DNA of 46,532 bases from a phage (PZ379549.1), one strand, 5' to 3'; positions 100 through 30,115 are shown, numbered from the stretch's first letter. The notes: a model not told the origin generated them from the letters alone. Made by a program: numbers and translations.

Positions 100-585
100 A
101 TGTTTAAATATTTGTTTGATTATGATGGAATGAAATTGATATGGAAAAACCCAACATCACCTAGATTCACAAAGGGCGACGTTGCGGGAACTAAGCATAA
201 GAGAGGATACATTCAAGTTTGCTTTAATAGGAAGCTATACCTTGCTCATAGGATAATATGGGAGATGCATCATGGCGAGATACCTGAAGGGATGCAGATT
301 GACCATGTAAATCAGGACAAATCAGATAACAGGATTTCAAACCTAAGGCTAGTCACGCAGCAGGAAAACAAAAAGAACAAACCAAAGCAAGTAAGAAACT
401 CTAGCGGAGTTAATGGTGTATCTTGGAATAAATCAAATGGAAAATGGCAGGTAAGGATAGGTGTAGATGGAAAAGATGTTCATCTTGGGTATTTTGATAA
501 CATTTCAGACGCTAAAAAAGCAAGATTCGATGCTGACTTTAGATTTAAATACCATGAAAATCACGGTAACAAAAAGCGCCAGTAG
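100..585 (+). CDS. HNH homing endonuclease with AP2-like DNA-binding domain (free-standing)
   Basis: 161-aa ORF; HNH-type block DHVNQDKSDNRISNLRLVTQQEN followed by AP2-like block GVSWNKSNGKWQVRIGVDGKDVHLGYF; antisense between tail chaperone and tape measure genes; paralog at 28631-29110. Confidence 0.7.
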   Translation: MFKYLFDYDGMKLIWKNPTSPRFTKGDVAGTKHKRGYIQVCFNRKLYLAHRIIWEMHHGEIPEGMQIDHVNQDKSDNRISNLRLVTQQENKKNKPKQVRNSSGVNGVSWNKSNGKWQVRIGVDGKDVHLGYFDNISDAKKARFDADFRFKYHENHGNKKRQ

Positions 586-2381: not shown

Positions 2382-3927
2382 GACGTAGCCTCCTCTACAG
2401 CTTCCTGGAAATACCTGCCCAACCTTGCTTGCACCACGCCAAGAACGCCAGCCGGAGCCTGATTCGAAGCCCCATACTCAAGGTCAGCAGGCGTAATCAA
2501 GCCTGTTAGTTATGTAGATAACACTTTGTCGCTGGTGAATTAGCCACAGCTCGAGCTTGCCTTGCCAGATACCTTTTTGTATGCTCCACCTGTTTTGATC
2601 GTAATCATTCAGAGACTGAGCTGAGCTGGGGAGTTCGCTGTAATCTGCCAGTTAGCCTTAAACCTACCAGTATCAACAGGCGATAAATCCACGATGGCGT
2701 TAGCAGCCTTAATTACCGTGTCGGCAGACAACAATATCAGAGAAGTTATCATCAGCTCTATCAATCCAATCAGCAATAGCTATTCGTCAAAGGTAGCCAA
2801 CACCACCAATATTTCTAGCCATAGGTAGCCACCCTCCTTAGAATTGGTCTGTAAGCCAACTACTAGTTCCTGTTGGTTTGACTGGCCTCGGGTCGACTAC
2901 AGTGTAAGTTTCATCTTCAACTATAATCCTGATAGCCCTGCAAGATTGCGGACTTCAGACAGTGAAAATTCCACGCTTGTCACCAAACTGGATATATTCG
3001 CCATCAATATCTCTGCGTTTTAATCTCCCTCACCAAGCCCCTTGATTGAAATGCAGTTGCCGCCAGCTACAGGAACCTCAACGCCGTCAACGATTTCGAC
3101 ACCATCCTTTACCAGTATTCATCTCGTGAATGTACCATCTGCCATCACTAAAGATAGTTGATGCCCGTGCGCATTAATTGATTCTACTTGGGAGTAATTC
3201 ATTGGCAACCGCACTCACCGCCAGCAGCGGACGTAATCAAGCCAAATCCGCCGCCTTTCTTGCGCAGGAGATTCCTAGTAAAGTGCGGCCCCACGGCGTA
3301 GCTGATCAATGATGACCTTGAGTTTGCGAGGTGGATATCATAAGCTGATAGAAAATTCACCGCTCAGCGGAGTAACTTGCCACCTTCTATGGCCATATAT
3401 CATCCAGCGACTTCATTCTCGCCCTTAAGCGCGCCATCAAGAAAGGCATCATGTGCAGATGTGTATAGTCCGACAGCGCTTTATAAGCATCATGCACCAA
3501 ACTTACTGGTCGCAGATGTATAGACTTAGCTAACTCAAGCCATACGTCCAGCGATTCGTCATCTGGAATATTCTTAAGAGCAGGAACCAGCGACTTGCAT
3601 AAAGGCTAATGCTTGTATCGTTCATAAAACCTCCATACAATAAACGGACGCCGAAGCGCCCTGTTTGGTTATTTGTACTCGTTGACCAGTCTCAGCCTCG
3701 GCAGATGGTTTTCGGTTCTTTGCGCTTATATTCTTGCTAACAACTTCTTGCGACGATTTGTTTGGTTGCCTTGGTGTCACCCTCAACCTGGTGAGTTGAC
3801 CCTCTGCGATTAAACGCTTGAGCCCAGTCGCAAATTACCTCAACCTCGAATGAGTGTCACCAGGCAAATATTTCTCACCTTTGTAAACGATAATCGTGCA
3901 CGCTCCAGTGTGTTCTAAACGAATCAT
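2382..3927 (-). pseudogene. frame-disrupted block of head-tail connector/neck genes (at least 4 genes)
   Basis: No ORF >=60 aa on either strand over about 1.5 kb; good RBS+ATG starts at 3927 (AAGGAG) and 3625 (GGAGG, ATGA overlap with upstream stop) each run into stops within 15-30 codons while adjacent frames continue protein-like sequence. Confidence 0.45.
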
Positions 3928-4016: not shown

Positions 4017-4098
4017 GATTTATTACGCGAAGGTGATGCCTTTGATTACAGCCATACAGTCAGCGGGCGATAAACAATCAATCCCGTCGCTTTTGAGG

Positions 4099-4977
4099 TT
4101 ACCGGGTAGCGTGAAATGCAGGTCCTTCGGCTGAGCCAGGTAGCACGTTCGTCACTTCTGGAATCTCAATACTCAGGTTGAGCGGATCCTTTTCAAACGC
4201 CAGTGCAGCTTTGCCACCAGCACCGTCGTAGTTATCCAGGAATTGCAGATAACGCAGAGTGATGCCGGAGTTATTGGTTGCAAACAACTGCGCGTAGCTG
4301 ATAGAGGTGTTCGGCACCAGTTCTTGCATCAGGCGGCGAGCGGAAGCAGGCAGCAGGATATCAGTCGCGGTGTGAGCACCATTGGTAGCTGTTTCGATAG
4401 CATCGATAAGCGCTGTGATATCAGTCATAGCAGCAGCCGCGGAGTTCCACGTACCAGCAACAACCTGGTTAACGTTCGGACGCATTGAATACGCCAGGAA
4501 TGCCGTGCGGTGCAGAGCCAGACCATACCAGTTTATCGAGCAGGTTGTCATGCGCTTCAAAAGCCAATGCCTGTTTACGAGCTGACAGTGACTGACCAGT
4601 TGCTGCGCCAGCTTTGATTTCGTCGGTGGAAATCAGGAACGCGTTACCAAAACGGAAAACTTTGCCTTGCTTCTCGGTCATGAACGCATCAACCAGCGGC
4701 AAGGTCATCAGAGTAATCAGCGATAATCTGAGCAATTACCAACACCATCAAACTCTGGATATTCGAAATACTTCGCGTGAGCCAGGAATTTCATTAGTTA
4801 CCGGGAAGATATTAACAACTGAGTTTTCTGCGATATTCTTTTTCGTAAGCGCGATGTCAGAGCTAGCGGTCAAGCTGGCTTAACGGTCCAGATACCAGCA
4901 GCATCAGCTTTATCTACACCCATTTGCTCAAGGTGAGCGGTGATTTTTGCTTGTTCTGCATCAAATTTAATGGCCAT
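4099..4977 (-). pseudogene. major capsid protein gene, interrupted by at least 3 frame changes
   Basis: ATG at 4977 (MAIKFDAEQAKITAHLEQMGVDKADAAGIWTVKPA then stop); capsid-like segments continue in other frames (ORFs 4469-4735 and 4099-4560); position between decoration gene and neck block. Confidence 0.55.
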
Positions 4978-11890: not shown

Positions 11891-11966
11891 TGGTGTTCCG
11901 CACTGGACTCGAACCAGTAACTAAGACTTAGGAGGTCTTTGCGTTATCCTGTTACGCCAGCAGAAC
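11891..11966 (-). tRNA. tRNA-Arg (anticodon CCU, reads AGG)
   Basis: Hand-folded 76-nt cloverleaf: acceptor GTTCTGC/GCGGAAC, D-arm GCGT-AACAGGATA-ACGC, anticodon arm AAGAC-CTCCTAA-GTCTT (U33, CCT, A37), variable AGTT, T-arm ACTGG-TTCGAGT-CCAGT, discriminator A, encoded CCA. Confidence 0.8.
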
Positions 11967-15634: not shown

Positions 15635-16156
15635 CTATTTAGTCTCCTTAATCATTTCTTGGTATGCGTTAATCATTGATACTGCACCCTTAAGTTCATC
15701 ACCTTCAAGACCAGCGACGCTTGGTGATAGTTTCAACAATCGAGCCTTGAACCTTTCAATGGTAGCCCCCTCCTTCTCTTGCTCTGCTTTGCTTCTTGAG
15801 CCGGATTTTACAGCGCCAGGAACCAGGCTAAGTGATGCGCAGTATGTCTCACTCTCGCCCTCAAAGTCGGTAAAACTAAGTGAGAACCTTGAGCGCACGT
15901 CAGCCGCCTTAATCTCAGGCATTCGGCTTACGGTGTTTGAAACGTATGACGCTTTTAGTTTTGGCATGTGGTATTCACCACCAGGTAGAACCTCCTCACC
16001 ACTTAGCGATACGAACGTCTCACGACTCATGCCGAAGTATTGACGAGCAATCATGGTCACAGGGACTGTGCACACTTTGTCTTCTGACTTGAGCGCCTGA
16101 CTCGCCATGTATCGAATGATTTCACCCAAACTTACTGCTTCTTTATGTTCTGACAT
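15635..16156 (-). CDS. hypothetical protein (first gene of leftward unit)
   Basis: 173-aa ORF adjacent to AT-rich control region. Confidence 0.45.
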   Translation of the reverse strand: MSEHKEAVSLGEIIRYMASQALKSEDKVCTVPVTMIARQYFGMSRETFVSLSGEEVLPGGEYHMPKLKASYVSNTVSRMPEIKAADVRSRFSLSFTDFEGESETYCASLSLVPGAVKSGSRSKAEQEKEGATIERFKARLLKLSPSVAGLEGDELKGAVSMINAYQEMIKETK

Positions 16157-16277
16157 ATTCGTTACTCCTGATTGGTTGCTCTTCGTTAAGATGAAACCAT
16201 GGTATCATGAATATACGCGTTATCAAGTGTTATGTTGTGTTTATATCTGCATTGGTTACGCTTTTTGACCTCTCAGC

Positions 16278-16291
16278 CCAGCTATAGCTGG
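16278..16291. promoter_or_regulatory. perfect 14-bp palindrome CCAGCTATAGCTGG
   Basis: Read directly; core AGCTATAGCT recurs at 35217-35226. Confidence 0.4.
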
Positions 16292-16407
16292 TGTAATTAC
16301 CCTGTGTAAGATTTTACGCGGATTCGCCGGGGGTATGCATATGTATCTATATAGATAAAATTAGTAGTTTTCATAGAAAAACTATCGACCCATCCATACG
16401 ACCAATC

Positions 16408-16495
16408 TACACCATATACATACATATATATAATAATAATAATAATATAGTAAAAGGTTGATATATATAGATATTATTATGTAACCATTGCGTAA
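16408..16495. repeat. AT-rich control module copy A, includes (TAA)5 microsatellite at 16431-16447
   Basis: About 85 percent identical to 35357-35439 by eye. Confidence 0.6.
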
Positions 16496-16642
16496 TCTAG
16501 CGTGGTAGGCGTGTATGATTCTTCGGAAGCGCACCTCATATACACACCATAACTTCGATAACGTGTATATCCAAATTGGCTCAGCAAGAATCAAAATCAA
16601 CTTGTATGGTAGTCCATCCACCATTCATTCACCCCACATCGA

Positions 16643-16743
16643 TCATTGCAAATTCTGCAACAATCAAAAACATCATTGCATTCGATGCAATATTGCTATA
16701 TGTGCAATAATGATGATGAATCATTGCAATAGCTGCAACAATC
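16643..16743. promoter_or_regulatory. operator/iteron-like array of TTGCAA-family sites
   Basis: 23-bp direct repeats TCATTGCAA-N4-TGCAACAATC at 16643-16665 and 16721-16743 flanking inverted repeat ATTGCAT-tcg-ATGCAAT at 16675-16691. Confidence 0.4.
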
Positions 16744-16755
16744 TATAAATCCAAC

Positions 16756-16830
16756 GAATAGCACTTTTTGCTAATGCACAATCATTAGTAAGTTGCTACT
16801 ATGTATTCATCGAAACGGTGCTGGACTCTG
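16756..16830 (+). promoter_or_regulatory. box-(-10)-leader unit at head of rightward small-ORF cluster
   Basis: Variant box 16756-16776, then TATGTATT, CATCGAAACGG. Confidence 0.35.
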
Positions 16831-17005
16831 AGTCACTTCCGAAAGGAACCAAAAAGAGTGAACGACACCGCGCAATGTGAGGAAGCGTTACCTTACCCAC
16901 CAAAGCGCCTTGCGGGTCCTTTTGATAGGATGCCGGGCCGGGTTTAAAATCCCGAGTTGTAGTGAGTACGTTGAAGAGATTTCGATAACAAGAAAACATA
17001 GAGAG

Positions 17006-17176
17006 ATGACAGTGATGACAGAAAAAACAGTTGGTTACAGTTACAGTAATGGTCATTGGGTTGTTGAGTTAAAAGGGTTTCACAAGTACCCAAAATTAAG
17101 TTTCTTCATGACAGAAGATGATGCAAAGTCTTGGGTTCAGGTTCTTAAAGAAAGGTGGTTTAAAAATGAAACTTAA
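17006..17176 (+). CDS. hypothetical protein
   Basis: ORF 16877-17176 trimmed to internal ATG. Confidence 0.3.
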   Translation: MTVMTEKTVGYSYSNGHWVVELKGFHKYPKLSFFMTEDDAKSWVQVLKERWFKNET

Positions 17177-17351
17177 AGACGAAGCATTTGAGCAATTAAA
17201 GCAGGAATGTGCGCTGACTGGATTGAACAGTGACTATACTGATATGGTTTTACGCGGACGCATCGATATCGACCTTGCTAAGCAATTCCAGTCAGATGAT
17301 GAATATCTGTGCTGCGATGGCCTTGGCTGCGACGAATGTTTACCCTGGTAA
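17166..17351 (+). CDS. hypothetical protein (Cys-rich C-terminus)
   Basis: ORF 17118-17351 trimmed to ATG 17166 with GGTGG RBS. Confidence 0.4.
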   Translation: MKLKDEAFEQLKQECALTGLNSDYTDMVLRGRIDIDLAKQFQSDDEYLCCDGLGCDECLPW

Positions 17352-17362
17352 GGAGCCGAATA

Positions 17363-17554
17363 ATGAAAGTTAAGTGCTTAAATAATCTTAATGATGGAAC
17401 CTGGGAATTCAGTAGTGGAAAGCATTACAGTTATGATGAAATTTATGGTTACGTAGTTGGTGATAACTTCAAGCCAGTTTACTGCTACATTGAAAATGGC
17501 CTTGTTATTGCCGCTGTTAAGCGTCGATTGATTTTTGAAATTTTAGAGGATTAA
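17363..17554 (+). CDS. hypothetical protein
   Basis: ORF 17309-17554 trimmed to ATG 17363. Confidence 0.4.
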   Translation: MKVKCLNNLNDGTWEFSSGKHYSYDEIYGYVVGDNFKPVYCYIENGLVIAAVKRRLIFEILED

Positions 17555-17555
17555 C

Positions 17556-17759
17556 ATGAAACTTCTTTGCACTAACATAATTAAAGACTTTAACGACGCC
17601 TTCAATAAGGGCTCTGAATACAACGCTACCGAGTTTAAAGATGATATGTGCCTTGTTACCGGCGAACGTCCACACAAGCATCACGACACGTTCCAGGCGC
17701 TTAAATGCCTTGATTACGTAATCATCCACGGCATCGCAACTTTTAAGGTGATTGAATAA
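17556..17759 (+). CDS. hypothetical protein
   Basis: 67-aa ORF. Confidence 0.4.
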   Translation: MKLLCTNIIKDFNDAFNKGSEYNATEFKDDMCLVTGERPHKHHDTFQALKCLDYVIIHGIATFKVIE

Positions 17760-17923
17760 TGCTTTTACCATCTGATATAAACTATTTCGATCTGGAAATA
17801 ATTAGTGCTTACAGCGGAAAGGGTTGGCCTTGCGGGGACTGGTTTAACGAGGACCTGCTTGAGTCTCACGAGATTATGTTGAAGGCAATTGAGAAGGCCA
17901 GAAAAAATAGCACTAATTGCTAA
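17759..17923 (+). CDS. hypothetical small protein ending ...KNSTNC
   Basis: 54-aa ORF translated by hand; C-terminus and stop encoded by box. Confidence 0.3.
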   Translation: MLLPSDINYFDLEIISAYSGKGWPCGDWFNEDLLESHEIMLKAIEKARKNSTNC

Positions 17924-17982
17924 AACTCACCGCCACGGATGGCGTATATTTACTCCATCGAAACGAAAGAGAGCAAGAGATC
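17906..17982 (+). promoter_or_regulatory. box-hairpin-(-10)-leader unit
   Basis: Box 17906-17924, hairpin CGCCACGGATGGCG 17931-17944, TATATT 17945-17950, TACTCCATCGAAACGAAAGAGAG. Confidence 0.45.
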
Positions 17983-18102
17983 ATGTTCGACAACTTTTAT
18001 GACGAGATGGAAGAGGCGGTTTTCATGGCGTCGCTAGATGGTAAGATTTACGGTTTAGTTCAGAAGTTTGATAAGATTGTTGTGCGTATTGTGCGCAAAT
18101 AA
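17983..18102 (+). CDS. hypothetical small protein
   Basis: ORF 17917-18102 trimmed to ATG 17983 after conserved leader. Confidence 0.3.
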   Translation: MFDNFYDEMEEAVFMASLDGKIYGLVQKFDKIVVRIVRK

Positions 18103-18143
18103 GTACCAAACAAATTCATGTGGAAAACTAAGAGATTAAAATA

Positions 18144-18533
18144 ATGACTACTACGATAACCAAAAATTTCATTAGCAACGACAACAAGCTATTTAAAGCT
18201 CGCGTTAAAAAGATTCACCAGTGGGTTAACGGTGTCGCTGAGGAAGTTGAATTTGAGCAAATCAAAAAAGACGGCAAATGGATCAACCTGGAAGAACGTG
18301 GAAAATACATTAAAACCAAAACTCTTTACTGCACAAAGGTTAACCATAAGTCTGGCGTTAAGAAAGACTTCAAAGAAGGTAAGCGATACCAGGTCAACAT
18401 GCATAGCGGACTTGGTCAGTCAGCTGGATACATTTACGATGAAGATGGCAACGCCTGGCAGCTATATCGCAGCGAAGATGTTGGCTTTTATACGTTGTGT
18501 GAAACTTACCACTTTGAGGCTCAATACAAATGA
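18144..18533 (+). CDS. hypothetical protein
   Basis: 129-aa ORF. Confidence 0.45.
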   Translation: MTTTITKNFISNDNKLFKARVKKIHQWVNGVAEEVEFEQIKKDGKWINLEERGKYIKTKTLYCTKVNHKSGVKKDFKEGKRYQVNMHSGLGQSAGYIYDEDGNAWQLYRSEDVGFYTLCETYHFEAQYK

Positions 18534-18700
18534 AATTATACATTGTAAGTGGTTGCACACACTATGATGGAAGCGAAGTGATTGCCGCTTTCGATGAAGA
18601 ATTCAAAGCACAGGAGTTTAAATATAACAAAGAAATATCTTCAGAAAATCACTTTGACTACTACAAGATAGATTGCATCTTACTAAATAGCACTAATTGA
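18530..18700 (+). CDS. hypothetical small protein ending ...LNSTN
   Basis: 56-aa ORF translated by hand; ATGA overlap with upstream stop. Confidence 0.3.
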   Translation: MKLYIVSGCTHYDGSEVIAAFDEEFKAQEFKYNKEISSENHFDYYKIDCILLNSTN

Positions 18701-18760
18701 TAATGCATTATAAGCGGCTATTGATATAATGGCCGCTCAGAAACAATGCGGAGAGAAGTA
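18686..18760 (+). promoter_or_regulatory. box-hairpin-(-10) unit
   Basis: Variant box 18686-18703, hairpin GCGGC..GCCGC enclosing TATAAT. Confidence 0.4.
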
Positions 18761-20023
18761 ATGTTTGATTTCAATGAAGATAAACTATCTGTTGAGCAAG
18801 TTATGGCGATCGCTGCCAATGACAACCTACCACCGCTTCGCGTGGCTATTAATGCCAATGGCTATCGACAGTCTCAATCGTTCTGGAAAGCACCTGTCGA
18901 GATTGATACAGGTAATGATAAGTATCCAGTAATCTCACTCGGTAATGATATTGATGTTGTTGGTAAGCTATCGGCTAATATCGCTCGCTCGGTTCAGTTC
19001 CCTGAGTCGTCAGCTTACATGCACTTTCTTGGTTGTGTTTCTGCTGCAATGCTTGGGCGTTTTACTGTCGAGTATCATGGAACCCAACAGCCAACATCTT
19101 TGTACGTGGTAACAAGTCAGCCGCCTTCAACTGGTAAATCAGCCATTAACTCGCTATCAATTGCGCCGATGATTGCTGAGACTGAGCGGTTGAATGAAGT
19201 ACGTAAACGTGATCGAAAAAAGATTATGGCTAAACTGTCCGCTCTGGCTAAAGAGATGAAGCAGGAGAAATCACCTTCTGAAATGGCTTCACTTTTTGAG
19301 GAGAAGGAGGATTTAGAGGAGAAGCTCGAGAAGCTATGCGATATAGTATTCCCTGTCTCCGATACTACTCCGGAAGGTCTTGCGCGAATCAACAATCGCC
19401 AGGGTAATTTTGCGGTAATCTCTGATGAGGCTACTAGCGTCAACTCACTGTTAGGCATGACTTACGGTGATGGCTCGAAGAAAACGAACAGCGAGCTCGT
19501 GCTGAAAGCATGGGATGCAGGTAATGTGTCAATTGCCCGTGCGAACGCAGAAAATAACATGAGCTTTGTGGCTATGGGATGCATCTCCGTAATTGCTCAG
19601 GATGAAACAATCAATGCCATTATGAATGCTGGTGCGCGTGGTATTGGTGTATCTGAGCGTTTCCTTCTGGTGCGTGAAAAATCATTTCTTGGCGACCGTG
19701 TATTTGTTGATGAAAATGGTGATTCAACCTATGAGGCTATTGATGGCGGCCTGAAAGCAGACTATTTCCGTCTTGTTCATGAGATTATGAATGAAGTTGA
19801 AGTGAAACTTACTGTAAGCGCGTCATCAATGCGTTACCTTAACCGCGCTCGTCAAGAGATGGAGCCTCATCTTGGTGATGGTGGCAAGTATTCTCACACA
19901 ATGTTGCGCGGTGCTCTTGGTAAGTTTGATAAGCAAGCAATCCGCATCGCTTCTGTTCTGCACGTAATTCGTAACTGGTTCTCACCAGCCGGATCCAGCC
20001 CTCAAGAAGTCAAGAGAGATTGA
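18761..20023 (+). CDS. P-loop NTPase, DUF3987-like (replication-associated?)
   Basis: Walker A-like SQPPSTGKS and Walker B-like FAVISDEATS; ATG 18761 with GGAGAGAAG RBS (track start 18746). Confidence 0.45.
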   Translation: MFDFNEDKLSVEQVMAIAANDNLPPLRVAINANGYRQSQSFWKAPVEIDTGNDKYPVISLGNDIDVVGKLSANIARSVQFPESSAYMHFLGCVSAAMLGRFTVEYHGTQQPTSLYVVTSQPPSTGKSAINSLSIAPMIAETERLNEVRKRDRKKIMAKLSALAKEMKQEKSPSEMASLFEEKEDLEEKLEKLCDIVFPVSDTTPEGLARINNRQGNFAVISDEATSVNSLLGMTYGDGSKKTNSELVLKAWDAGNVSIARANAENNMSFVAMGCISVIAQDETINAIMNAGARGIGVSERFLLVREKSFLGDRVFVDENGDSTYEAIDGGLKADYFRLVHEIMNEVEVKLTVSASSMRYLNRARQEMEPHLGDGGKYSHTMLRGALGKFDKQAIRIASVLHVIRNWFSPAGSSPQEVKRD

Positions 20024-20033
20024 ACTGGATACA

Positions 20034-20246
20034 ATGCAGGAAGCGGTTATGATTTTCAACGAACTAAGCAAGACTTATTTATCATCCGCTAGTGCTGCTG
20101 GTCATGCTGGTGACAATGCCGAGATGAACAAGCTGGTTGATATCCTGATTAAGCAGGGCAAGAATGGTAAAGGTGTTGTTGGTGTTCGCTCGTTGTATGA
20201 GGCTGCACGCAAGGTTAAACCTTTTGAAGCTCAGGCTGGAATGTAA
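20034..20246 (+). CDS. hypothetical protein
   Basis: 70-aa ORF. Confidence 0.4.
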   Translation: MQEAVMIFNELSKTYLSSASAAGHAGDNAEMNKLVDILIKQGKNGKGVVGVRSLYEAARKVKPFEAQAGM

Positions 20247-20347
20247 TGACTCGCATTAAGGACCACTTGATTCCTATGCTTGATGAGAAAAACTACACAT
20301 GCCTGATTGGTGATAAAATTTACATTAATCCACGATTGCTGGGGTAA
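20246..20347 (+). CDS. hypothetical small protein
   Basis: 33-aa ORF between two overlapping-stop junctions. Confidence 0.25.
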   Translation: MTRIKDHLIPMLDEKNYTCLIGDKIYINPRLLG

Positions 20348-20350
20348 TTT

Positions 20351-20686
20351 ATGTACCTGCTCGACCTGTATAATTTCTGCGAAGGATACAAGAACTTCAA
20401 CCGCCAGCACCTGGCAAGATTCATCTATAAGCACAAGGATTGCGCAAGGATGGCCAAGGCTGCCGGGGTTGATGAAAGGTATTTTGCCTCAAGTTGCTCG
20501 AAGGAGTTTATGGCGAGAATGCTTACGGCTGGGTATCTTGATGGAGTTAATGGAGTGTACTGGTGTAAGGGTTCAATTAAGCGACCATTTCAGTTTGAAT
20601 TCATGAGCCTTGAAGGTAGGTCCAGTGATTACGTCAGTGAGATGATGAACATAGCCAACATGAGTGATGACGAATTGTTTGCATAA
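20351..20686 (+). CDS. hypothetical protein
   Basis: 111-aa ORF, last gene of rightward cluster. Confidence 0.4.
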   Translation: MYLLDLYNFCEGYKNFNRQHLARFIYKHKDCARMAKAAGVDERYFASSCSKEFMARMLTAGYLDGVNGVYWCKGSIKRPFQFEFMSLEGRSSDYVSEMMNIANMSDDELFA

Positions 20687-20691
20687 AAATA

Positions 20692-20712
20692 GCCCCATTA
20701 CGGGGCTTTTTT
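20692..20712. terminator. bidirectional rho-independent terminator
   Basis: GCCCC-attac-GGGGC then TTTTTT on plus strand; A-run on other side; sits between convergent genes. Confidence 0.8.
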
Positions 20713-21084
20713 GTTTTTCCTGAATATCATTAAGAGCAGAATGATGATGACGCAAAACATGATTCCACTCCCAATCCACGGGATTGCAGACGAATCATTG
20801 TTGGTGATTTCAATCTTCTCAGCCGTGATTGTTGATGCCTTGATTGAGTTATCAGAAGTCTTTTTACCGCTTGAACTATCAAGAGTGTCAACCTTAGAGT
20901 TCTTCACTTCAGCCTTTGCGCTGGAACTTGAATCAACCTTATTAGTTATCCCCACTCCAACCTTGTTATTCTCCGCACCTGCTTGAGCGCTAATCTCTGG
21001 CCTACTACCAATCAACCCGGTCAGCGCAGATGTTGCCGAGCAACCAGAAAGTATAATTACCGCAGCAATTAACGCAGCCTTCAT
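20698..21084 (-). CDS. unimolecular spanin (u-spanin)
   Basis: N-terminal lipoprotein signal with lipobox LSGC, Ser-rich periplasmic part, C-terminal transmembrane helix; last gene of lysis cassette. Confidence 0.55.
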   Translation of the reverse strand: MKAALIAAVIILSGCSATSALTGLIGSRPEISAQAGAENNKVGVGITNKVDSSSSAKAEVKNSKVDTLDSSSGKKTSDNSIKASTITAEKIEITNNDSSAIPWIGSGIMFCVIIILLLMIFRKNKKAP

Positions 21085-21567
21085 TTACCCACCCCACTTA
21101 AGCATAATTTAATCTCCTCGTTGCGCCTGTTGACGAGGCCTTTAACAACTTTTAGCTTGCCATTTACTCGAGCTTTATTCCAGGAGGCGAGAGCATTACA
21201 ACCCTGCTTCAATCTTGCCCTGATTAATCAGCCTTACTGCCGTTGACTTCCTCATTGCAGCGCCACCAACGTTGTAGCTAAAGCTGATTAACGCCGCCCT
21301 TGTCTGTGGAGAGATTGGGTAAGTTACTGCATCCTGCACATACTTTCCATGAATCTGGATGTGTTTCTCCAGTAAGTTCCTGCACTCCCTTGCACTGTAC
21401 TTTTTACCCCACACCACATCAGGACCAGTGATACCTGAACAAACCGTAGGAATGCCTGCAATGTCCATGTAAGGCTTGTATTCCACACCTTCTACTAGCT
21501 CAATAATCGGCGCTGCGATGTATATTGCCACAGCCGTCGCTGCACTAATTACCAGCTTCTGCTTCAT
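21081..21567 (-). CDS. SAR endolysin (phage lysozyme), apparent frame change near 21196-21215
   Basis: N-terminal SAR-like hydrophobic segment, catalytic region LVEGVEYKPYMDIAGIPTVCSGITG; C-terminal 34 codons (WNKARVNGKLKVVKGLVNRRNEEIKLCLSGVGK) lie in another frame ending at TGA overlapping spanin ATG. Confidence 0.6.
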
Positions 21568-28630: not shown

Positions 28631-29110
28631 ATGAACTGGCATGATTATTTTTACTATGTAGATGGCAAATTGCATTGGAAGATTAGCACTGCAAGACGTG
28701 TTAAGGTTGGCGATGAGTGCAACTCACTATCTACATCTGGCTATTACAAAGTGTCTGTTAATGGCTTTAGGACTTATGTACATAGAGTTGTGTGGGAGAT
28801 GTTTAATGGAGAACTTCAAAATGGCGACTACATTGATCATATAAACCATAACAAATTAGATAACAGAATAGAAAACCTAAGAGTAACAACAAATCAAGGT
28901 AACTCAAGAAATTGCAAGCTTAGCGTTTTATCAACAACTGGTTATTGTGGAGTGGCAAAGCTAAATCACGGAAAATTTAAGGCTCACATCAAGGTTGACG
29001 GCAAGCAGCTACACCTTGGGAACTTCGATACTCCAGAGCGGGCGTATAAAGTAAGAATTGAAGCAGAGGGAAAATACAACTTTCACGAAAATCACGGGTT
29101 AAGCAAATGA
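28631..29110 (+). CDS. HNH homing endonuclease with AP2-like domain (paralog of 100-585)
   Basis: Same architecture: DHINHNKLDNRIENLRVTTNQGN then GVAKLNHGKFKAHIKVDGKQLHLGNF. Confidence 0.7.
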   Translation: MNWHDYFYYVDGKLHWKISTARRVKVGDECNSLSTSGYYKVSVNGFRTYVHRVVWEMFNGELQNGDYIDHINHNKLDNRIENLRVTTNQGNSRNCKLSVLSTTGYCGVAKLNHGKFKAHIKVDGKQLHLGNFDTPERAYKVRIEAEGKYNFHENHGLSK

Positions 29111-30030
29111 ATTACGATAAGAATGAAGTTATACCTAAGATGGCCGGATTGTGGAAATCATTTTATGCAAAGGAACTTGGTTGGAATGATAGACACCTAA
29201 GTAAGAAGCACGGACCATGCCCATACTGCTTTGGCACTGACAGATTCAGATTTACCGACGAAATAGGCAGTGAAAAAGGAAATGGCGCGGCAGTTTGTTC
29301 GAAATGCGGAAGTGACTCCGGTATAGGATGGGTCATGAAGTGCACTGGATTGTCCTTCGCTGATTCAGTAAATTTGCTTGGTGACTGGCTGAACTTAATA
29401 CCAATTGAGGTTATAGTTAAAGCAAACAAGCAAGCATCAAGAACGCAGCGTTATAAAATTTGCGCTCAAGTAGACCACAAGAAAGTTCTTGAGGTCATGG
29501 AGAGGACTCAGCGAGTTGAATCTAGTCCACTCACGACATACGAGGGTATTTATGACGAGTTTGGTTTTGATGTTGGTATAGCTAAAAATTGTTCAATGAT
29601 TCACGCAATCCCTTGTTCGATGGTTTATGAAGATGGGCTTAGTGATGAGTTCTGTAACGTAATGTTTATTGATGAGGATTCAAATGTTAAGTTCCTTGCT
29701 GGTGATTACACTCGTGATTCTGTTTCCGTTATTGGTTCTAAGCTGGATGATAGTTATACTTATGTTGTTGACAATTATATTGATGGCATACGTGTTCACC
29801 TTGCTACTGGTGGGCGCGAAGTGTTTGTTGCTTTCTCCTGTTACAATATGGAGATGGTTATCCACCGCGACAAGTCAAGGAAGTTCAGAATTGCTTGCCG
29901 TGATTCTGATAGCGATATACTCGCTGTTGCTGACGATAGGGGTGTTGATGTTGTAGTTCCTAATGACGGTGAGTCATTTAAAACAGGCATACGAAAGAAA
30001 GTGTACAAAGCAAACGACTTGCTAAACTAA
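29107..30030 (+). CDS. DNA primase (zinc-finger plus TOPRIM-like)
   Basis: CPYCFG...CSKCGSDSG zinc-binding motif, acidic TOPRIM-like C-terminal half. Confidence 0.65.
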   Translation: MNYDKNEVIPKMAGLWKSFYAKELGWNDRHLSKKHGPCPYCFGTDRFRFTDEIGSEKGNGAAVCSKCGSDSGIGWVMKCTGLSFADSVNLLGDWLNLIPIEVIVKANKQASRTQRYKICAQVDHKKVLEVMERTQRVESSPLTTYEGIYDEFGFDVGIAKNCSMIHAIPCSMVYEDGLSDEFCNVMFIDEDSNVKFLAGDYTRDSVSVIGSKLDDSYTYVVDNYIDGIRVHLATGGREVFVAFSCYNMEMVIHRDKSRKFRIACRDSDSDILAVADDRGVDVVVPNDGESFKTGIRKKVYKANDLLN

Positions 30031-30051: not shown

Positions 30052-30115
30052 TTGCCTGAAAGATGGTAGAATGAATTTTGGCAATTAGTGCTACTTTACA
30101 AATGGAGACTTTACA

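What the first reader, a model, noticed from the sequence alone, without database searches (positions are those of the whole stretch)
16877..20686. Rightward cluster of about twelve small ORFs plus one P-loop ATPase, several under box promoters
These genes follow the major AT-rich control region, overlap by ATGA/TAATG junctions, and mostly encode proteins of 33-130 aa with no motifs I recognise. This is typical of early host-takeover or anti-defence genes. The 420-aa protein has Walker A and B motifs; I suspect a DUF3987-type replication-associated ATPase but cannot confirm it.
Basis: inference. Interest (0 to 1): 0.4.

Follow-up and report, generated by a model that had tools for sequence, protein, structure and literature searches.

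The report
T1-type phage small-gene and helicase module
This is the well-conserved but poorly understood "genes 1-10" block of a T1-like coliphage: variable small genes followed by a DUF3987 replicative helicase. It is ordinary for this family, and two of the reported small genes are only helicase fragments created by sequence errors.

Summary
The rightward cluster is real. It is the counterpart of phage T1 genes ST1-ST10 (Rtp 66-75, ACG-M12 gp01-gp10).

- **Helicase.** The 420-aa ORF is a bona fide DUF3987 protein (Pfam E=3.7e-37) with Walker A and B motifs. It is truncated. In six relatives the gene is one ORF of 522-527 codons.
- **Sequence quality.** The window has insertion-biased indels throughout: 28 of 29 indels versus a close relative are insertions. 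They break the capsid, endolysin and other essential genes, so the split is an artefact.
- **Real content.** There are nine small genes, one helicase, three copies of the known Drexlerviridae 21-nt box repeat, and a bidirectional terminator.
- **Conservation.** Only g7, the helicase and g10 are conserved to T1. The other small genes are patchy accessory cassettes whose junctions fall at the boxes.
- **Function.** No small protein matches a known function. "Early/anti-defence" remains untested.
- **First ORF.** That leader is constrained at the nucleotide level and shows compensatory base-pair changes, so it is probably structured RNA rather than coding sequence.

The parts
16757..16802 (+). 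Box-1 promoter module: 21-nt Drexlerviridae box (AATAGCACTTTTTGCTAA, TTGCTA at 16768-16773), a 23-nt spacer, and a -10-like TACTAT at 16797-16802
   Evidence: The box and its upstream region are conserved in ES, IME542, AugustePiccard and L008. The motif is described for phage TLS in PMC11447400.
16809..16986 (+). 178-nt leader conserved at the nucleotide level, probably structured RNA.
   Evidence: RNAalifold predicts 51 pairs, 4 with compensatory double changes. 99% of cells pair, against 37-43% when partners are slid. No other frame stays open in all 6 phages. The thermodynamic z-score is only -1.08 and there is no Rfam match.
17015..17176 (+). g1, 53 aa (56 aa if started at ATG 17006). Homologue of ACG-M12 gp02. 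No PHROG or Pfam family. Part of a cassette (leader + g1) absent from ES, IME542 and AugustePiccard.
   Evidence: dN/dS 0.13 versus ACG-M12.
17166..17351 (+). g2, 61 aa, phrog_9053 (unknown function), with a Cys-rich C-terminus (CCDGLGCDEC)
17363..17554 (+). g3, 63 aa, no PHROG or Pfam family. Found in 7 other Drexlerviridae records (phiA2-1, Rao1, TR1-3, CY1, SU57); absent from ES.
17556..17759 (+). g4, 67 aa, phrog_4448 (unknown function)
   Evidence: dN/dS 0.14 versus ES.
17759..17923 (+). g5, 54 aa, phrog_4548 (unknown function), rtp72-like. Its 3' end carries box 2.
   Evidence: dN/dS 0.05.
17906..17964 (+). Box-2 promoter module: box, 22-nt spacer with hairpin CGCCAcggaTGGCG, -10-like TATATT at 17945-17950, and leader CATCGAAAC at 17956-17964. 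It lies 77 nt upstream of the g6 ATG.
17983..18102 (+). g6, 39 aa, phrog_5407, rtp70-like. Truncated by TCA->TAA at codon 40; homology to the 53-aa relatives continues to about 18132.
   Evidence: dN/dS 0.05.
18144..18533 (+). g7, 129 aa, phrog_2684, rtp69-like. Its C-terminal half is 52% identical to T1 ST7. Predicted all-beta, with no fold match.
   Evidence: dN/dS 0.09.
18530..18700 (+). g8, 56 aa, Pfam DUF7336 (31.8 bits, cut-off 25). Very rare: one 98%-identical relative among 5.8 billion proteins and no tblastn hit in 50,697 phage records. Its 3' end carries box 3.
18686..18730 (+). Box-3 promoter module: box with TTGATA at 18697-18702, a 22-nt spacer, and -10 TATAAT at 18725-18730. It lies 75 nt upstream of the helicase ATG. 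The equivalent box precedes T1 ST9.
18761..20347 (+). g9, DUF3987 (SF6/MCM-like) replicative helicase. It is 527 codons in five Braunvirinae relatives (T1 ST9 is 522). Here it reads as three ORFs (420 + 70 + 33 aa) because of a +1 nt insertion near 20010 and a +2 nt insertion near 20242.
20351..20686 (+). g10, 111 aa, phrog_2794. Always immediately downstream of the helicase (T1 ST10, rtp66). Confident model of four helices plus a beta-hairpin, winged-helix-like.
   Evidence: dN/dS 0.07.
20691..20707 (.). Bidirectional intrinsic terminator (AGCCCCattaCGGGGCT flanked by T-runs), shared with the convergent spanin/endolysin/holin cassette
   Evidence: The same arrangement is annotated in T1.

Best explanation
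The region is the Braunvirinae version of the Drexlerviridae 'gene 1-10' module. It runs rightward from the divergent, AT-rich, pac-proximal control region and is organised as three transcription units. Each unit is headed by the family-specific box / -10 / CATCGAAAC-leader module.

- TU1 is a structured leader plus g1-g5.
- TU2 is g6-g8.
- TU3 is the DUF3987 helicase plus g10.
- All three stop at a bidirectional terminator shared with the lysis cassette.

Functionally it has two layers. The first is a conserved replication core (g7, the DUF3987 MCM-like hexameric helicase, and the winged-helix-like g10). Because the phage has no DNA polymerase, this core presumably unwinds phage DNA for the host replisome together with the distant primase. 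The second layer is a set of interchangeable accessory genes of 39-67 aa with unknown function, swapped between phages at or next to the conserved boxes.

The apparent split of the helicase into 420 + 70 + 33 aa is a sequencing or assembly artefact.

Shown: homology, gene boundaries, purifying selection, box architecture, the artefact, and the mosaic structure.

Inferred: helicase activity, the replication roles of g7 and g10, early timing, and promoter function of the box module.
For: - Synteny and homology with T1 ST1-ST10, ACG-M12 gp01-10, IME542, AugustePiccard and ES.
- DUF3987 membership and PHROG 'DNA helicase'. The SF6 replicative-helicase assignment comes from the literature. TLS/T1 lack a polymerase and rely on a primase and a helicase (PMC11447400).
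- dN/dS of 0.02-0.14 for g1, g4, g5, g6, g7, g9 and g10.
- Box statistics and fixed geometry: 16 copies versus 0.16 expected, and 15 of 16 followed by a -10-like hexamer 22+/-1 nt after TTGCTA. T1 has boxes at equivalent positions before ST1, ST5, ST7 and ST9.
- Terminator.
- Artefact evidence. Both insertions are absent from all relatives compared at nucleotide level (ES, IME542, AugustePiccard, L008), and the gene is intact in all six. 28 of 29 indels versus L008 are insertions in the window. Capsid, head-closure, neck, endolysin, SNF2 helicase and VRR-NUC genes are also frame-broken.
- Mosaic junctions versus ES fall at 16781/2, 17968/9 and 18684/5, at or next to the boxes.
Against: - No experimental or transcriptomic data exist for timing or promoter activity.
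- The generic sigma-70 scan found fewer sites than in shuffles (8 versus 14.5).
- TTGCTA sits 22 nt from the -10, too far to be a canonical -35, so how the box works is unknown.
- No solved structure or MCM link could be reached by sequence.
- The winged-helix assignment of g10 rests on non-significant Foldseek hits (E>=0.7).
- The primase is about 9 kb away rather than adjacent, unlike many DUF3987 systems.
- g7 has no detectable fold relative.
Confidence: 0.8

Rival explanations
1. One reading: the small ORFs are early host-takeover or anti-defence genes. Under this view they are expressed immediately after DNA entry to disable host functions or immune systems.
For: - g1-g6 and g8 are short, patchily distributed and cassette-like, which is typical of arms-race accessory genes.
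- The cluster abuts the pac/terminal-repeat region (PMC7718038).
- Functions of about 50% of T1 proteins, mostly small ORFs, are unknown (PMC13164509).
Against: - There is no match to any characterised family.
- No anti-defence library was available.
- g7 and g10 are core genes conserved with the helicase down to T1.
- The box promoters are not specific to this cluster.
- No temporal data were found.
Confidence: 0.3
2. The three-piece helicase is biologically real: a gene fission into ATPase core plus two translationally coupled C-terminal peptides, a pseudogene, or programmed frameshifting.
For: - The net insertion is +3 nt.
- Native internal Met codons (20034, 20246) could serve as restarts.
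- The 2-nt insertion creates a TAATG stop-start overlap.
Against: - The gene is intact in all six relatives, including the 96%-identical L008.
- The same window has many other frame breaks in essential genes.
- The indel bias is 28:1 towards insertions, a technical signature.
- There is no slippery heptamer at the sites.
Confidence: 0.04
3. The 16877-17176 ORF is a genuine 99-aa protein: an ACG-M12 gp01-like peptide fused to g1. Under this view the leader is coding rather than structured RNA.
For: - The + frame 2 is open in all six phages over 47 codons.
- ACG-M12 annotates a 51-aa gp01 with an ATG there.
- Two variable sites are synonymous (CTT/CTA/CTC, AGT/AGC).
- The fusion is shared by IMM-001.
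Against: - dN/dS is about 1.3 with pS seven-fold lower than in adjacent g1.
- The ATG is present only in ACG-M12, and there is no SD before the conserved GTG.
- The amino-acid changes are radical (L/E/D, I/P/L, F/S).
- One 'non-synonymous' change is the compensatory partner of the closing stem.
- The frame relation to g1 differs between phages.
Confidence: 0.3

Closest known systems
Phage T1 genes ST1-ST10 (NC_005833 44105-48674), equivalent to Rtp rtp66-rtp75 and ACG-M12 gp01-gp10
   Same: - Same position: between the pac-proximal divergent region and the convergent spanin/endolysin/holin cassette.
- Same order: small ORFs, then a g7-like gene, then the DUF3987 helicase, then a g10-like gene, then a terminator.
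- Box repeats precede the first gene, the g7-like gene and the helicase.
   Different: - Only g7 (C-terminal half, 52%), g9 (57%) and g10 (54%) have T1 orthologues.
- T1 has an HNH gene (ST8) before the helicase, which is absent here.
- The window's combination of g1 cassette, g3, g6 and DUF7336 g8 was not seen in any single relative examined.
DUF3987 / SF6 MCM-like phage replicative helicases (Kazlauskas et al. 2016, PMC4889955)
   Same: - Pfam DUF3987 domain, Walker A and Walker B.
- A C-terminal region of about 110 aa, where that paper places a winged HTH.
- The phage lacks its own polymerase and has a separate primase.
   Different: - The primase is neither fused nor adjacent: it lies at 29107-30030, about 9 kb away.
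- The window's copy is frame-broken by sequence errors.
TLS/T1 21-nt direct repeat aaATAGCACnnnTTGnTAAAA (PMC11447400)
   Same: - Same consensus and same orientation with transcription.
- About 76 nt upstream of start codons (77 and 75 nt for boxes 2 and 3).
- 16-21 copies per genome.
   Different: This analysis adds three observations:
- A -10-like hexamer follows at a fixed 22+/-1 nt.
- The spacer often holds a short hairpin of variable sequence.
- The leader CATCGAAAC(GA) is conserved.

Box 1 in the window is followed by a 178-nt inserted leader rather than a short one.
T4-type mobile regulatory cassettes (Arbiol et al. 2010, PMC2839356; known to me only from the abstract listed)
   Same: Conserved promoter-associated sequence blocks flank small, variable early genes, and indel or replacement junctions coincide with them. 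L008 is rearranged at the boxes.
   Different: The phage family and the motif are unrelated. Recombination at the boxes is inferred from junction positions only, and the L008 joins could be assembler artefacts.

Membership tests
Pfam DUF3987 (PF13148) | Profile HMM score above the gathering threshold | tested here: met
   128.8 bits against a cut-off of 27, E=3.7e-37, residues 86-410. PHROG 2373 'DNA helicase' E=1.4e-205, covering profile positions 2-409 of 515.
Pfam DUF3987 (PF13148) | P-loop NTPase motifs (Walker A GKS/T and Walker B hhhhDE) | tested here: met
   PPSTGKS and AVISDE read directly from the translation. Both are invariant in the six-orthologue alignment.
SF6/MCM-like replicative helicase (Kazlauskas 2016) | C-terminal winged-HTH domain contiguous with the ATPase | tested here: inconclusive
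   The C-terminal 107 codons are present and 96-97% identical to IME542, but they lie in two other frames because of +1 and +2 insertions. The gene is contiguous in all six relatives. The fold of the domain was not modelled.
SF6/MCM-like replicative helicase (Kazlauskas 2016) | Detectable relationship to MCM or solved AAA+ helicases | tested here: inconclusive
   phmmer and profile searches of PDB sequences gave nothing below E=0.07. The published link needed HHsearch, which was not run against Pfam here.
SF6/MCM-like replicative helicase (Kazlauskas 2016) | Primase fused or encoded immediately upstream | tested here: not met
   The upstream genes are g6-g8, small proteins with no primase homology. 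The primase homologue is at 29107-30030.
SF6/MCM-like replicative helicase (Kazlauskas 2016) | ATP-dependent DNA unwinding; essential for replication | not testable with these tools
   Requires biochemistry or genetics.
Drexlerviridae 21-nt direct repeat (TLS DR) | Consensus aaATAGCACnnnTTGnTAAAA, co-oriented with genes, about 76 nt upstream of the start codon | tested here: met
   16 copies versus 0.16 expected, with strand following the gene direction at 15 of 16 copies. Boxes 2 and 3 lie 77 and 75 nt from the ATG.
Canonical sigma-70 promoter | -35 hexamer 17+/-1 nt upstream of the -10 hexamer | tested here: not met
   TTGCTA lies 22+/-1 nt from the -10-like hexamer in 15 of 16 copies. The generic scan found fewer promoter-like sites than in shuffles.
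Pfam DUF7336 (PF24024), for g8 | Profile HMM score above the gathering threshold | tested here: met
   31.8 bits against a cut-off of 25, E=1.3e-07.
Winged-helix DNA-binding proteins, for g10 | Helix-turn-helix plus beta-hairpin wing with significant structural similarity to known wHTH domains | tested here: inconclusive
   The model has pLDDT 83.5, with four helices followed by a beta-hairpin at residues 63-72. The top PDB hits are almost all IclR, MarR, GntR, DtxR or E2F-type domains, but E>=0.7 and TM<=0.5.
Known anti-defence or host-takeover proteins | Homology to a characterised inhibitor family | tested here: not met
   No significant hit for g1-g8 or g10 in Pfam, PHROGs (all 'unknown function'), NCBIfam, PADLOC or PDB sequences. 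No dedicated anti-defence library was available.
Structured non-coding RNA (leader 16809-16986) | Compensatory base-pair changes exceeding controls; no conserved coding signal | tested here: inconclusive
   4 compensatory pairs; covariation score 0.119 against 0.071 in shuffles (0 of 500 reach it) and <=0.048 when slid. dN/dS is about 1.3. However, there are only 6 sequences from about 3 lineages, helices 5-9 are invariant, the MFE z-score is -1.08, and there is no Rfam family.

The most novel reading that the evidence does not exclude
The 178-nt leader (16809-16986) may be a previously undescribed structured phage RNA. It begins at the predicted start of the first rightward transcript and is closed by a covarying 7-bp stem that uses the family-wide CATCGAAAC leader motif. 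It could be a cis-regulatory 5'-UTR or a stable small RNA. It travels with g1 as a mobile cassette found in only about ten Braunvirinae genomes.
Probability: 0.4. Interest if true: 0.5.

Novelty: new member of a known kind. Interest (0 to 1): 0.25.

Why it matters
- **For annotation.** The window cannot be taken at face value.
- **For biology.** The module is the least understood part of T1-like phages: about half of T1's proteins have no assigned function. The analysis separates a conserved replication core (g7, DUF3987 helicase, g10) from exchangeable accessory cassettes. That tells experimenters which genes to test for replication and which for host interaction.
- **Two side observations could be tested directly.** One is the fixed box / 22 nt / -10 / leader geometry. 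The other is the covarying leader RNA. Both bear on the unresolved question of how T1-like phages, which encode no RNA polymerase or sigma factor, organise transcription.

Tried and rejected
- **Rfam** at E<=1 over 15900-20900 returned only a sub-threshold terminator-like hit at 20674-20711.
- **ARAGORN** found no tRNA-like element in the leader; its one gene is elsewhere, at 11891-11966.
- **PDB sequence searches** for the helicase (single sequence and profile), g7 and g10 gave nothing significant.
- **Foldseek against the PDB** gave no significant match for g10 or g7.
- **BFVD** returned only uncharacterised family members for g10, plus weak local matches inside a primase and a helicase of Vibrio phage Vc1.
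- **A profile search of 1.84 billion representatives** with the g10 alignment found only 23 proteins, none with an informative extra domain.
- **PADLOC and NCBIfam** returned only sub-threshold noise.
- **Searches for more leader copies** failed. An exact 25-mer was absent from IMG/VR. An 18-mer in JGI metagenomes gave four chance hits with no flanking similarity.
- **The T1 genome paper** was not available, and one literature query failed on term length.
- **Literature searches** for Drexlerviridae temporal transcriptomics or anti-defence screens covering this module found nothing relevant.
- **The leader as a coding region** was first accepted (after), then reversed by the dN/dS and covariation results.
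- **The minus-strand 85-aa ORF** at 16799-17056 was rejected because it carries stops in the other five phages.

Full report
**Identity of the window.** Megablast of 16000-21500 finds 114 phage records, almost all Escherichia Drexlerviridae. The best are phages ES and AN_ECEAS (94% identity over 83% of the query), followed by TR1-3, IME542, AugustePiccard and others. Annotated context in ES, IME542, AugustePiccard, ACG-M12 and T1 shows the same layout. A divergent non-coding region is followed by a run of small ORFs, a 'DNA helicase' of about 527 aa, a protein of 111-135 aa, a terminator, and a convergent spanin/endolysin/holin cassette. In T1 these are genes ST1-ST10. ACG-M12's notes link its genes to Rtp rtp66-rtp74.

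**The observation.** ORF listing confirms a same-strand series from 16877 to 20686. I refined the starts using SD motifs and relatives:

| Gene | Coordinates | Size |
|---|---|---|
| g1 | 17015 (or 17006)-17176 | 53 (56) aa |
| g2 | 17166-17351 | 61 aa |
| g3 | 17363-17554 | 63 aa |
| g4 | 17556-17759 | 67 aa |
| g5 | 17759-17923 | 54 aa |
| g6 | 17983-18102 | 39 aa |
| g7 | 18144-18533 | 129 aa |
| g8 | 18530-18700 | 56 aa |
| 420-aa ORF | 18761-20023 | 420 aa |
| 70-aa ORF | 20034-20246 | 70 aa |
| 33-aa ORF | 20246-20347 | 33 aa |
| g10 | 20351-20686 | 111 aa |

A bidirectional terminator sits at 20691-20707. The AT-rich core upstream has GC 0.21-0.23 at 16350-16499.

**The helicase and the two false genes.** The 420-aa protein hits Pfam DUF3987 at 128.8 bits (cut-off 27) and PHROG 2373 'DNA helicase', but only profile positions 2-409 of 515. 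tblastn of the intact 527-aa orthologues shows residues 1-416 in frame 2, 415-494 in frame 3 and 494-527 back in frame 2, at 96-97% identity. The nucleotide alignment pinpoints one extra A (CCCTCAAGAAG versus CCCGC-AGAAG) and two extra bases (GGAATGTAATGA versus GGAA--TTATGA). So the 70-aa and 33-aa ORFs are the helicase C-terminus. This is the region where Kazlauskas et al. place a winged HTH in DUF3987 SF6 helicases.

Is the split real? Several results say no.
- A proteome-wide tblastn of IME542 against the window shows frame breaks in the SNF2-type helicase (three pieces), VRR-NUC, endolysin, major capsid protein, head-closure and neck proteins, among others.
- Against the closely related contig L008, which has an intact 527-aa helicase and an intact 161-aa endolysin, 28 of 29 indels are insertions in the window. 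These include the two in the helicase and one in the endolysin.
- Such a one-sided bias, together with broken essential genes, is a technical signature.

I therefore treat the split as an artefact (rival probability about 0.04).

**Are the small ORFs genes?** Nei-Gojobori comparisons give dN/dS of 0.05-0.14 for g1, g4, g5, g6, g7 and g10, and 0.02 for the helicase. These are genuine coding sequences. Family assignments are all 'unknown function': phrog_9053 (g2), 4448 (g4), 4548 (g5), 5407 (g6), 2684 (g7), 2794 (g10), and Pfam DUF7336 (g8). g1 and g3 have no family. PADLOC, NCBIfam and PDB sequence searches are negative. g6 carries a TCA->TAA change at codon 40, with conserved sequence continuing beyond the stop.

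**Core versus accessory.** Only g7 (C-terminal half), the helicase and g10 have T1 orthologues, at 52%, 57% and 54% identity.
- Against ES, the window-specific segments are 16782-17165 (leader + g1), 17368-17555 (g3), 17969-18125 (g6) and 18535-18684 (g8).
- Three junctions lie at or next to the boxes: just after box 1, after the box-2 promoter, and at the start of box 3.
- g3 occurs in seven other phage records, and the g1 cassette in ten.
- g8 occurs in none of 50,697 phage records and has a single near-identical protein among 5.8 billion.
- L008 is rearranged relative to the window exactly at box copies. This could be recombination or assembler mis-joining.

**g10 and g7.** g10's family is confined to contigs of about 45-51 kb and has only 23 representatives among 1.84 billion proteins. 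AlphaFold gives pLDDT 83.5: four helices followed by a beta-hairpin. The top PDB Foldseek hits are nearly all winged-helix regulators, but none is significant. BFVD returns family members plus weak matches of about 55 residues (about 40% identity) inside a primase and a helicase of Vibrio phage Vc1. g7 is predicted all-beta (pLDDT 73, pTM 0.44) with no fold match. A replication-accessory role for both is inferred from strict co-conservation with the helicase.

**'Box promoters'.** The motif AATAGCACnnnTTGnTAA occurs 16 times (0.16 expected). At 15 of 16 copies it is oriented with the local genes; the copy at 30078 is opposite to its flanking genes. It is the 21-nt direct repeat already reported for TLS, T1, Rtp and Rogue1, whose function is unresolved (UP element, enhancer site or stoperator). 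T1 has 20 copies, four of them in ST1-ST10 and at equivalent positions.

In the window, 15 of 16 copies are followed by a -10-like hexamer at 22+/-1 nt from TTGCTA. Most have a short inverted repeat of variable sequence in the spacer. Six copies match a loose CATCGAAAC-like pattern (four match it exactly), followed by SD and ATG. The 22-nt spacing rules out TTGCTA as a canonical -35. The TAGCA-N5-TGCTA dyad would centre near -42. Because the motif also precedes structural, lysis and recombination genes, it says nothing about early timing.

**The first ORF and the leader.** The region from the predicted TSS (about 16809) to 16986 is about 92% identical between the window and ACG-M12, while g1 itself is about 80%.
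- For 16877-17005, pS is 0.089 and dN/dS about 1.3. The adjacent g1 body has pS 0.68 and dN/dS 0.13.
- Across six phages, RNAalifold predicts nine helices (51 pairs). Four pairs show compensatory double changes. One is in a 7-bp closing stem pairing CATCGA(A/C)A with T(T/G)TCGAT, and two are in a GNRA-loop hairpin.
- 99% of cells pair, against 37-43% when partners are slid. The covariation score exceeds all 500 shuffles.
- G.U pairs make the structure specific to the + strand.
- The overlapping minus-strand ORF has stops in the other five phages. The + frame 2 stays open but lacks a conserved ATG or SD and shows radical substitutions.
- Caveats: only about three lineages are represented, five helices are invariant, the MFE z-score is -1.08, Rfam has no match, and no further copies were found.

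I rate a structured non-coding leader as more likely than a 99-aa protein, but unproven.

**Timing and function.** No Drexlerviridae transcriptome or functional screen covering this module was found. The SU57 paper places the terminal repeat and pac in the untranslated region between the two divergent small-ORF clusters. The TLS paper notes that these phages lack a polymerase and depend on a primase and a helicase. 'Early' is therefore a reasonable inference for the helicase unit but is untested.

**Verdict.** This is an ordinary, family-typical module. The gene count is inflated by sequence errors. The anti-defence idea is untested. Interest is low (0.25). The covarying leader RNA and the box geometry are the only features worth a follow-up.

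Noticed in passing
whole window; e.g. 27002, 26980, 26252, 25900, 25867, 25858, 21206, 20010, 20242, 4026-4977, 2818-3202: The window carries many insertion-type indels that break essential genes: SNF2 helicase, VRR-NUC, endolysin, major capsid, head-closure and neck proteins. 28 of 29 indels versus contig L008 are insertions in the window. Any small ORF elsewhere in this window should be checked against relatives before it is believed.
   Followed up: yes
window 16809-16986 (+): A 178-nt leader starts at the predicted TSS of box 1. It is constrained at the nucleotide level (pS 0.09 versus 0.68 next door) and has 4 compensatory base-pair changes across 6 phages, including a long-range closing stem and a GNRA hairpin. 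It is a candidate novel structured RNA. It moves with g1 as a cassette found in only about 10 Braunvirinae genomes.
   Followed up: partly
window 16590-16756 (+), just upstream of box 1: This non-coding stretch is far more conserved across ES, IME542, AugustePiccard and L008 than the neighbouring genes. It holds repeated ATCATTGCAA/CTGCAACAATC units and an ATTGCAT-TCG-ATGCAAT palindrome, next to the AT-rich core at 16350-16499. It could be an operator, origin or pac element. The T1-like pac/terminal repeat is reported to lie in this untranslated region.
   Followed up: partly
16 sites: 9228, 12972, 14317, 14999, 15511, 16757, 17906, 18686, 22142, 23229, 25571, 28074, 30078, 33865, 35516, 36265: The known Drexlerviridae box is followed at a fixed 22+/-1 nt by a -10-like hexamer. 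The spacer usually holds a short inverted repeat of variable sequence (often around GGAT), followed in several copies by a CATCGAAAC(GA) leader. That spacing is non-canonical for sigma-70 and puts the TAGCA-N5-TGCTA dyad near -42. Some spacer hairpins score as terminator-like.
   Followed up: partly
window 30078-30095 (-); T1 (L007) 15070 and 18834 (-): A few box copies point against the surrounding genes. The window's copy at 30078 lacks a downstream -10-like hexamer. These may be antisense or decayed copies.
   Followed up: no
window 16781/2, 17968/9, 18684/5; L008 5338-5396 and 9564-9627: Cassette junctions relative to phage ES, and the rearrangement breakpoints of contig L008, coincide with box copies. 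This suggests the boxes act as homology patches for shuffling small genes. Alternatively they may cause assembler mis-joins.
   Followed up: partly
window 18100-18102: g6 (rtp70 family, 53 aa in relatives) ends prematurely at a TAA where relatives have TCA. Conserved sequence continues after the stop. This is either a real nonsense mutation or a base error.
   Followed up: partly
window 11891-11966 (-): ARAGORN finds a tRNA-Arg (anticodon CCU) within the leftward small-ORF cluster.
   Followed up: no
window 100-585 (+) and 28631-29110 (+): Two HNH homing-endonuclease paralogues each match several IME542 HNH genes at 38-97% identity. T1 has an HNH gene (ST8) directly upstream of its DUF3987 helicase, but the window does not.
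   Followed up: no
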